IMG/VR virus record: IMGVR_UViG_2698536476_000008
Direction: 5' to 3' (one strand)
DNA: 64,000 nucleotides
From: a virus
Taxonomy: Duplodnaviria > Heunggongvirae > Uroviricota > Caudoviricetes
The notes below the pieces were generated by a model, which did not search any database, was not told where the DNA came from, and was given only the letters and a program-made list of their open reading frames with translations. Of the stretch, positions 62,908 to 63,342 are shown in pieces. The position numbers and the translations under genes are program-made. Each line of letters begins with the position of its first letter. Position 1 is the first letter of the stretch.

Positions 62908-63034
62908 TTTTTACCTATACAACAGTAAGTTGAACAACATTTGAGAACGGTATGCACTTTGTGATTTCCACACACACTGGTTTTGTTAATTAAAACCTGT
63001 AGCTTGCAATAAATAACGATAGTGGGCAGAAAAT

Positions 63035-63210
63035 ATGCTAATAGGCTATGTACGCATATAGACAAATGAACAAAACACAGCTATGCAGTGAAAAGCACTT
63101 GAAAGCGCAGGATGTGAGCTAATTTTTGCGAATAAGGCGAGCAGCAAAAAAGCTGGACACCCTGGGTTAAAAAAGGTTCTGCGTATGCTTTCCAGAGGTG
63201 ATACCCTAGT
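63035..63210 (+). pseudogene. Decayed N-terminal fragment of a serine invertase/resolvase gene with two in-frame stops
   Basis: Translation MLIGYVRI*TNEQNTAMQ*KALESAGCELIFANKASSKKAGHPGLKKVLRMLSRGDTLV parallels Cin N-terminus. Confidence 0.55.
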
Positions 63211-63342
63211 CTCGGACTAGGGACAACATTTCGAGAACAGTTTTCATTAGCGGCCAGCAGGCGCTAGATACATCGAATTGATGTGCCGCGCGATAAATGT
63301 ACCTATTCTATCAAGATAAATTACACCGACGCGGCATTTGAA

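What the first reader, a model, noticed from the sequence alone, without database searches (positions are those of the whole stretch)
62933..63230. Decayed invertase pseudogene convergent with cin, bracketed by direct repeats
A plus-strand remnant (63035-63210) translates to an N-terminal serine-recombinase sequence with two in-frame stops and ends in a palindrome (CCCTAGTC-TCG-GACTAGGG). It is flanked by AACATTTGAGAAC (62937-62948) and AACATTTCGAGAAC (63215-63228). This suggests a past duplication or inversion event involving the invertase, or a captured second inversion system now inactivated.
Basis: seen in the sequence. Interest (0 to 1): 0.5.

Follow-up and report, generated by a model that had tools for sequence, protein, structure and literature searches.

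The report
Leftover stub of replaced cin gene
This is the dead 5' stub of the original P1-type cin invertase gene, left behind when an ancestor of this P1-like plasmid-prophage swapped its tail-fibre inversion cassette for a Min/Pin-type one; I recall it being described in 1991 as "psi-cin" of plasmid p15B, so it is ordinary.

Summary
Window 63035-63211 (+) is the first 59 codons of a P1-type cin gene. It is 88% nt and 83% aa identical to P1 cin (E 1e-34). It has two in-frame stops, and the first replaces the catalytic serine codon. The stub sits where P1 carries cin, directly after lydC and the cin promoter region. Homology to P1 stops at 63211, on the left arm of an 8-bp palindrome. The intact convergent gene is not cin. 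It is a Min/Pin-type invertase, 66% nt identical to the stub, next to a multi-segment invertible tail-fibre region. So the stub is the ancestral gene and the intact gene is the incomer, the reverse of "a captured second system now inactivated". GenBank notes on P1 record the same 262-nt, 89%-identical, one-gap match in p15B. From memory, Sandmeier et al. 1991 named it psi-cin. The same allele is in 147 PLSDB plasmids; its junction is in 171 of 5426 complete E. coli genomes. Other P1/D6-like plasmids carry independent cin stubs. Codon statistics, degraded promoter hexamers and polymorphic junction motifs indicate a neutral scar. Already known; low interest.

The parts
62644..62907 (-). lydC (holin-like, 87 aa), the left anchor that is collinear with P1
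   Evidence: ORF list. Annotated LydC in phage vB_EcoM-813R1 and in P1.
62934..62948 (+). Direct repeat copy 1, ACAACATTTGAGAAC, in the lydC-cin intergenic region, just left of where high similarity to P1 begins (62947)
   Evidence: Cin-type plasmids have ATATCATTGGGAAAC or ATCATCATTGGGGAAC at this position.
62949..63034 (+). Relic of the cin promoter/leader region. The P1cin -35 TTTCCA is kept (62965-62970). The P1cin -10 is changed from TAAAAT to TAAAAC (62991-62996). The P2cin -10 TATCAT reads CAACAT (62935-62940).
   Evidence: Alignment with the annotated P1 promoters. No promoter-like site passes the scan.
63035..63211 (+). psi-cin: codons 1-59 of a P1-type cin gene, with stops at 63059-63061 (catalytic Ser10 codon TCA->TAG) and 63089-63091 (Arg19 CGA->TGA)
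63053..63124 (+). Relic of the cin recombinational enhancer (P1 cin nt 19-90). It differs from P1 at 10 of 72 positions, all within cin nt 22-63.
   Evidence: P1 annotation; position list.
63204..63222 (.). Junction palindrome CCCTAGTC-TCG-GACTAGGG. The left arm is the last 8 nt of psi-cin. It is made perfect by the psi-specific change G174A.
   Evidence: The right arm carries a mismatch in phage 813R1.
63212..63278 (.). 67-nt junction filler of unknown origin, lying between the end of P1 homology and the start of homology to chromosomal Pin/Min-type modules
63223..63238 (+). Direct repeat copy 2, ACAACATTTCGAGAAC
   Evidence: It reads GAGGAC in phage 813R1.
63279..63342 (-). 3' flank of the incoming invertase module, with a terminator-like hairpin (stem 63337-63323 followed by a T-rich tail). 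It is conserved next to chromosomal prophage invertases.
63343..63915 (-). Intact Min/Pin-type DNA invertase, 190 aa from the ATG at 63915 (an alternative TTG lies at 63924), with Resolvase and HTH_7 domains
   Evidence: (exact match to UniRef Q05517_ECOLX 'DNA-invertase').
63970..63995 (.). Crossover (mix/cix-type) site AAGACTAAAACGTTGGTTTGGGGGAA at the edge of the invertible region, which continues beyond the window
   Evidence: Sequence. It resembles the invertase crossover sites and consensus tabulated in PMC4134206.

Best explanation
The element is a non-functional evolutionary scar: the 5' 177 bp of the ancestral P1-type cin gene, with its upstream promoter region still attached. It sits in its original place next to lydC.

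In an ancestor of this p15B-type lineage of P1-like plasmid-prophages, the rest of cin and the two-state C segment were replaced. The incoming cassette carries its own Min/Pin-type invertase in the opposite orientation and a multi-segment invertible tail-fibre region. The left end of the replacement fell inside cin after codon 59. The stub then decayed: two stops (one at the catalytic serine), excess non-synonymous changes, and weakened promoter hexamers.

Shown here: homology, collinearity, the breakpoint, relaxed constraint, a single shared allele across many plasmids, and independent stubs in other lineages.

Inferred: the direction of the event (cin ancestral, min incoming), an illegitimate rather than site-specific join, and the lack of function.
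For: Homology and position:
- The stub is 88% nt and 83% aa identical to P1 cin nt 1-177, but only 66% nt identical to the resident invertase.
- Window 62560-63211 is collinear with P1 lydA-lydC-Pcin-cin. Similarity ends at 63211.
- GenBank notes on P1 record that P1 31570..31832 (cin promoter plus cin nt 1-173) is '89 pct identical (1 gap)' to p15B X62121 nt 7147..7408. They list the min enhancer homology separately at p15B 6463..6533. The window gives the same figures: about 262 nt, about 89% identity, one gap, and the same spacing to within a few nt.

The neighbouring gene and region:
- The resident invertase exactly matches UniRef Q05517_ECOLX.
- In close relatives it lies next to four or more short 'phage tail protein' segments, the Min-type multiple inversion layout.

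Relaxed constraint:
- The stub differs from P1 at 10 non-synonymous and 7 synonymous codons, with 4 second-position changes. Intact P1/P7/D6 cin pairs differ at 2-5 non-synonymous and 11-13 synonymous codons, with 0 second-position changes.

Single origin:
- Nine other loci that were selected by an exact match to the junction motif, so the junction itself was a given, all carry the same two stops (7 IMG/VR, 1 GTDB, 1 RefSeq plasmid). Only 5 SNPs were seen in about 347 nt.
- The configuration is in 147 PLSDB plasmids; the junction plus adjacent min 3' end is in 171 of 5426 complete E. coli genomes.

Independent analogous scars:
- pB2C_96 (D6-type) keeps cin nt 1-36, joined through AACAAATGA microhomology to the 3' flank of a minus-strand pin-type invertase.
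- A1_181 p_unnamed2 keeps cin nt ~1-48, followed by a fixed tail-fibre gene.
- pCARB35_01 has a longer decayed cin.

No sign of retained function:
- No Rfam hit.
- No promoter-like site and no terminator call on the palindrome.
- No cix-like site.
- The palindrome and the second repeat copy each carry a mismatch in phage 813R1.

Own knowledge, not verifiable here: Sandmeier et al. 1991, NAR 19:5831 (PMID 1945872) reported 'a truncated 5' region of a DNA invertase gene termed psi cin' next to min in p15B. They found its enhancer inactive but activatable by two nucleotide substitutions.
Against: - The origin of the 67-nt filler (63212-63278) is unexplained, so the joining mechanism is not established.
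- The direct repeat is non-random (p about 0.002) and the palindrome sits exactly on the breakpoint. A plain illegitimate join does not require either feature.
- The stub is highly conserved among carriers (98-100%). This could reflect either recent common ancestry or some constraint, for example lydC upstream signals.
- Lack of enhancer or promoter activity is inferred from sequence and from remembered literature. It was not measured.
- The original p15B sequence (X62121) and the 1991/1992 papers could not be opened.
Confidence: 0.9

Rival explanations
1. The stub arose by duplication or inversion of the resident invertase gene.
For: The two genes are convergent and 63% identical at protein level. 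A palindrome lies at the end of the stub.
Against: The stub is 88% nt identical to P1 cin and only 66% to the resident gene. Its upstream 88 nt are also P1 cin promoter sequence, collinear with lydC. The resident gene is complete, so nothing is missing from it.
Confidence: 0.02
2. The stub is kept because it still works as a cis element. Candidates are a second Fis-dependent recombinational enhancer for Min, the promoter/regulatory region of the divergent lydC gene, or a source of antisense RNA running into the 3' end of min.
For: The distal part of the enhancer (cin nt 64-94) is identical to P1. lydC starts 128 nt to the left and needs upstream signals; P7 has a predicted C1 operator just before cin. 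Every independent stub keeps the intergenic region plus at least 36 nt of cin. The allele is nearly invariant in carriers.
Against: Ten changes cluster in the proximal half of the enhancer. Remembered literature says the psi-cin enhancer is inactive. The P7 operator is not conserved in the window or in P1. Both annotated cin -10 hexamers are degraded and no promoter-like site is detected on either strand. Retained lengths differ (36, 48 and 177 nt), as expected for arbitrary breakpoints. Near-invariance is equally explained by recent shared ancestry.
Confidence: 0.08
3. The 275-bp block between the direct repeats is an insertion (mobile element or site-specific capture), and the repeats are a target-site duplication or cix-type recombination sites.
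For: A 15-nt direct repeat brackets the P1-like block and is statistically non-random. Its GAGAAC end resembles the outer end of P1 cixL.
Against: The block is in the native P1 order and orientation relative to lydC, so it was not inserted. It has no terminal inverted repeats and no transposase. The repeat units match a cix half-site at only about 7 of 12 positions, have no dyad partner, and fail a consensus scan at 3 mismatches or fewer. A 15/16-nt duplication with an indel is atypical of known target duplications.
Confidence: 0.03

Closest known systems
psi-cin of plasmid p15B of E. coli 15T- (Sandmeier, Iida, Huebner, Hiestand-Nauer, Arber 1991, NAR 19:5831; EMBL X62121). Cited from my own knowledge plus the GenBank notes on P1.
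   Same: Same position (between lydC and a convergent min gene). Same extent (cin promoter region plus the first ~173-177 nt of cin). Same similarity to P1 (89%, one gap). Same spacing to the min enhancer. The window's element is, for practical purposes, that element.
   Different: Nothing detectable with the data at hand. X62121 itself is not in the searchable collections, so base-for-base identity was not checked.
cin of phage P1 (and of P7 and D6): a Din-family serine DNA invertase with an intragenic Fis-dependent enhancer
   Same: 88% nt and 83% aa identity over codons 1-59. The same upstream region and the same neighbour, lydC.
   Different: The stub is truncated after codon 59. The catalytic Ser10 codon is a stop and there is a second stop at codon 19. 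There is no HTH domain and no adjacent cixL or C segment. The enhancer carries 10 changes.
Other cin stubs in P1/D6-like phage-plasmids: pB2C_96, A1_181 p_unnamed2, pCARB35_01; also pSvP1/pTZ20_1P 'partial invertase' (PMC6906374)
   Same: All are 5' remnants of cin left next to the lysis genes where the tail-fibre/invertase cassette was replaced or deleted.
   Different: The breakpoints differ (cin nt ~36, ~48, or longer), as do the replacing DNAs and the mechanisms (microhomology join in pB2C_96; IS26/IS-mediated in pTZ20_1P and pSvP1). They are independent events.
Truncated invertase of the EC958 Phi4 prophage (PMC4134206)
   Same: An invertase gene fragment beside an invertible tail-fibre region.
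   Different: In that case the fragment is the only local invertase and inversion is thought to be driven in trans. Here a complete invertase sits next door and the stub belongs to a replaced system.

Membership tests
Serine recombinase / DNA invertase gene (Pfam Resolvase PF00239 + HTH_7) | Sequence homology to the N-terminal catalytic domain | tested here: met
   PF00239 scores 37.1 bits (cut-off 23.3), covering profile positions 2-68 of 145. 83% identity to P1 Cin residues 1-59.
Serine recombinase / DNA invertase gene (Pfam Resolvase PF00239 + HTH_7) | Catalytic serine (Ser10 of Cin) present | tested here: not met
   Codon 9 of the remnant, which aligns with the catalytic serine of Cin (the S in VRVSTNEQ), is TAG (63059-63061) where P1, P7 and D6 have TCA.
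Serine recombinase / DNA invertase gene (Pfam Resolvase PF00239 + HTH_7) | Uninterrupted ORF with a complete catalytic domain and a C-terminal HTH DNA-binding domain | tested here: not met
   Two in-frame stops. Homology ends after codon 59 of 186. No HTH_7 domain. It is therefore a pseudogene fragment, not a functional member.
psi-cin of p15B-type plasmids | Lies between lydC and a convergent min-type invertase gene, at the place where P1 has cin | tested here: met
psi-cin of p15B-type plasmids | Comprises the cin promoter region plus about 173-177 nt of cin, about 89% identical to P1 31570..31832 with one gap | tested here: met
   The P1 GenBank note compared with the window: 7 differences plus 1 gap in 89 nt upstream, and 20-21 differences in 173-177 nt of coding sequence.
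psi-cin of p15B-type plasmids | Recombinational enhancer inactive (reported property, recalled from the 1991 abstract) | not testable with these tools
   Only the sequence is available: 10 of 72 enhancer positions differ from P1, all in the proximal half.
cix/mix/gix/hix invertase crossover site (considered for the direct repeats and the palindrome) | 26-bp site made of 12-bp imperfect inverted half-sites (TTCNCNNAAACC) around a 2-bp core | tested here: not met
   No match at 3 mismatches or fewer anywhere in the window. By eye the repeats match a half-site at about 7 of 12 positions with no partner. The palindrome has an odd centre and unrelated sequence.
Intrinsic transcription terminator (considered for the palindrome) | G+C-rich stem-loop followed by a T run | tested here: not met
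   The stem folds (-20 kcal/mol with flanks, z -2.45), but no T run follows and the scan does not call it.
Transposable-element insertion with target-site duplication (considered for the direct repeats) | Foreign DNA with defined ends inserted between the duplicated target copies | tested here: not met
   The DNA between the repeats is native P1-type sequence, collinear with lydC.

The most novel reading that the evidence does not exclude
The fine structure of the junction may record the mechanism of the cassette swap. It consists of an 8-nt inverted copy of the last bases of the stub, followed by a 15-19-nt direct copy of a lineage-specific sequence from 290 bp upstream, followed by about 40 nt of orphan DNA. 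This could be the footprint of replication template-switching (serial short templated insertions) during the join.

Combined with the independent cin stubs of 36, 48 and 177 nt in other P1/D6-like plasmids, it would show that invertase-plus-tail-fibre cassettes are exchanged repeatedly by illegitimate or microhomology-mediated joins. These joins would land inside the 5' end of cin rather than occurring by homologous or invertase-mediated recombination.

I do not know whether the 1991/1992 papers already discuss the repeat and the palindrome.
Probability: 0.3. Interest if true: 0.3.

Novelty: already known. Interest (0 to 1): 0.12.

Why it matters
The stub marks the left boundary of a host-range cassette replacement in P1-like phage-plasmids. 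It gives the polarity of that event: cin is ancestral at this locus and the Min/Pin-type module is the incomer. Practically, the stub is a convenient lineage marker for p15B-type elements. It was found in 147 PLSDB plasmids, and its junction in about 3% of complete E. coli genomes. The stub was not annotated in the one RefSeq/PGAP record I inspected. It adds nothing new to the understanding of invertases. The recurrent stubs only reinforce the known picture of mosaic tail-fibre evolution.

Tried and rejected
1. Literature. The 1991 NAR paper, the 1992 J Bacteriol paper and the P1 genome paper are not held. Full-text searches found no accessible text that mentions psi-cin. The attribution therefore rests on my memory plus the P1 GenBank notes.

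2. Origin of the 67-nt filler.
- A distant BLAST against phages gave only the same lineage plus a chance 31-nt hit in an unrelated SSU5-like Klebsiella phage-plasmid.
- An apparent resemblance to the flank of a chromosomal prophage invertase was not significant (440 of 2000 shuffles).
- The filler has no excess of shared 9-mers with the rest of the window (21 observed, 20.4 expected).

3. An 'empty site' or a Min-type genome lacking the stub. None was found among 7 IMG/VR loci and 1 GTDB locus.

4. cix-like sites near the stub. None was found.

5. The C1 operator predicted upstream of P7 cin. It is not conserved in the window or in P1.

6. ncRNA. No Rfam match.

7. My first repeat-significance script had a bug that gave 20% false positives from self-overlap. 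It was corrected.

Full report
**Context.** The window ends in the darA-hdf-lydB-lydA-lydC block of a P1-like plasmid-prophage, all on the minus strand. lydC occupies 62644-62907. Next comes an intact invertase gene on the minus strand (63343-63915) and a crossover-type site at 63970-63995. The finding lies in the 435-bp gap between lydC and the 3' end of that invertase gene.

**Observation check.**
- Window 63035-63211 on the plus strand reads MLIGYVRI*TNEQNTAMQ*KALESAGCELIFANKASSKKAGHPGLKKVLRMLSRGDTLV.
- This is 83% identical to residues 1-59 of P1 Cin (E 1e-34) and 63% identical to the resident invertase. It passes the Pfam Resolvase threshold over the first 68 of 145 profile positions.
- The palindrome CCCTAGTC-TCG-GACTAGGG is at 63204-63222.
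- The direct repeat is real. Its copies are at 62934-62948 (ACAACATTTGAGAAC) and 63223-63238 (ACAACATTTCGAGAAC).
- Each repeat motif is unique in the 64 kb even with two mismatches allowed. A repeat this good arose in 7 of 3000 shuffles of the region.
- Perfect 8-bp hairpins are common, with 35 in the window. The palindrome is notable only for its position.

**What it is.**
- A BLAST against phage genomes shows that window 62560-63211 is collinear with P1 lydA-lydC-cin. The match stops at 63211.
- In P1 the plus-strand cin gene, its two predicted promoters, its RBS and its intragenic enhancer (cin nt 19-90) lie exactly where the remnant lies.
- Alignments put the end of homology after GATACCCT(A/G)GTC, which is codon 59. 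That is the left arm of the palindrome.
- At the DNA level the remnant is 88% identical to P1 cin, 87% to P7 and 84% to D6, but only 66% to the neighbouring intact gene.
- The remnant is therefore not a copy of its neighbour. It is the 5' end of a P1-type cin gene in its native place.

**The neighbouring gene.**
- It is an exact match to UniRef Q05517_ECOLX 'DNA-invertase' and has Resolvase and HTH_7 domains.
- It lies in the opposite orientation to P1 cin.
- In close relatives it abuts four or more short alternative 'phage tail protein' segments, the Min-type multiple-inversion layout.
- PMC6906374 describes the same reversed, Min-like invertase in pJIE250-3.

**It is already known.**
- The GenBank notes on P1 state that P1 31570..31832 (cin promoter region plus cin nt 1-173) is '89 pct identical (1 gap)' to p15B X62121 nt 7147..7408. 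They list the homology to the min enhancer separately at p15B 6463..6533.
- The window reproduces those numbers: about 262 nt, 27-28 differences including one single-base gap, and the same distance to the resident gene's enhancer region within a few nt.
- From my own knowledge, Sandmeier et al. 1991 (NAR 19:5831, PMID 1945872; reference details confirmed) reported 'a truncated 5' region of a DNA invertase gene termed psi cin' beside min. They found its enhancer inactive but activatable by two substitutions.
- Also from my own knowledge, Sandmeier et al. 1992 (J Bacteriol 174:3936) interpreted Min as a substitution of a Cin-like system in an ancestral p15B genome.
- I could not open either paper.

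**Evidence of decay.**
- The first stop converts the catalytic serine codon (TCA to TAG). The second converts Arg19 (CGA to TGA).
- Against P1, the stub has 10 non-synonymous and 7 synonymous codon differences, with four second-position changes. Intact cin genes of P1, P7 and D6 differ from each other at 2-5 non-synonymous and 11-13 synonymous codons, with no second-position change.
- The annotated P1cin -10 hexamer TAAAAT reads TAAAAC. The P2cin -10 TATCAT reads CAACAT.
- The promoter scan finds nothing on either strand. It does not call the palindrome a terminator, although it does call a terminator-like hairpin just downstream of the resident invertase gene.
- Ten of the 72 enhancer positions differ from P1, all in the proximal half.
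- There is no Rfam match.

**Distribution and single origin.**
- The full configuration (stub, junction and 3' end of the resident gene) is in 147 PLSDB plasmids and in two sequenced phages at 98.6-98.9%. The junction with the adjacent min 3' end (window 63205-63480) is in 171 of 5426 complete E. coli genomes.
- Nine further loci, retrieved by an exact match to the junction motif, all carry the same two stops. Only five SNPs were seen in about 347 nt.
- In phage vB_EcoM-813R1 the right arm of the palindrome and the second repeat copy each carry a mismatch. Neither motif is strictly conserved.
- PGAP leaves the interval unannotated.

**Independent analogues.** Other P1/D6-like plasmids carry different cin stubs.
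- A1_181 p_unnamed2 keeps cin nt ~1-48, followed by a non-invertible tail-fibre gene.
- pCARB35_01 keeps a longer, decayed cin with an 11-nt deletion.
- pB2C_96, a D6-type element without lydC, keeps cin nt 1-36. These are fused through an AACAAATGA microhomology to the 3' flank of a minus-strand pin-type invertase. The same flank is found next to a chromosomal prophage invertase.
- Replacement of the invertase/tail-fibre cassette with a breakpoint inside the 5' end of cin has therefore happened several times.

**The junction.**
- Homology between the resident module and chromosomal Pin/Min-type prophage modules starts near 63279. This leaves a 67-nt filler (63212-63278).
- The filler begins with TCG. 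Next comes an inverted copy of the last 8 nt of the stub. Next comes a copy of the sequence found 290 bp upstream, at the left edge of the P1-like block (19 aligned positions with one indel; 2 of 2000 shuffles reach that score).
- Copy 1 differs from the equivalent sequence in Cin-type plasmids at three or four positions. At each of these it agrees with copy 2. The two copies are therefore related within this lineage.
- The palindrome is perfect only because of a stub-specific G-to-A change at cin nt 174.
- The remaining ~40 nt match nothing.
- These features are compatible with short templated insertions at an illegitimate join, or with later quasi-palindrome correction. I cannot discriminate between these.
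- They are not cix sites and not a target-site duplication, because the DNA between the repeats is native.

**Verdict.** However, the polarity is reversed. The stub is the ancestral cin and the intact convergent gene is the captured Min/Pin-type invertase. The element is the psi-cin of p15B-type plasmids, already described and most likely a neutral scar. Interest is low. The only mildly new material is the fine structure of the junction and the recurrence of independent cin stubs.

Noticed in passing
L018 (pB2C_96, NZ_CP035876.1) 2863-3078: A D6-type phage-plasmid has an independent 36-nt cin stub. It is fused via AACAAATGA microhomology to the 3' flank of a minus-strand pin-type invertase. 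This is a second, separate capture of a reversed invertase cassette.
   Followed up: partly
L004 (NZ_CP040069.1) ~2590-2640; L003 (NZ_CP031654.1) 2501-2860: Two further P1-like plasmids have different cin remnants: one of ~48 nt followed by a fixed tail-fibre gene, and one longer decayed cin with an 11-nt deletion. Neither has an annotated invertase nearby.
   Followed up: partly
L007 (IMGVR_UViG_2541047595_000008), just left of the first repeat copy: The sequence left of CAACATTTGAGAAC is replaced by ...CGATTTATTCAACAAAGCC. From memory this looks like an IS903-family terminal inverted repeat, so an IS appears to have inserted within repeat copy 1 in that contig.
   Followed up: no
L002 (phage vB_EcoM-813R1) 6784-7355: The resident Min-type invertase is annotated there as two overlapping CDS ('Hin2' of 252 nt and 'Hin1' of 333 nt). 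This suggests a frameshift or a sequencing error in that phage's invertase.
   Followed up: no
window 63915 vs 63924: The longest ORF of the resident invertase starts at TTG 63924 (MFFMQIGY...). The conserved start, and the PGAP/UniRef protein of 190 aa, use ATG 63915.
   Followed up: partly
window 63276-63290 / 63330-63344: A 15-nt imperfect inverted repeat lies just downstream of the resident invertase stop codon, together with a terminator-like hairpin (stem 63337-63323). It is conserved beside a chromosomal prophage invertase (L012) and in pB2C_96.
   Followed up: partly
window 4260-5060: A cluster of diverged direct repeats (units of 24-34 nt recurring every ~200-280 nt, 62-96% identical). 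It was found only as a by-product of the repeat control.
   Followed up: no
window 23136-23156 / 23309-23329: A 21-nt direct repeat (95% identical), GATGAAAAACCGTAA(G/A)GCAAA, with copies 173 nt apart.
   Followed up: no
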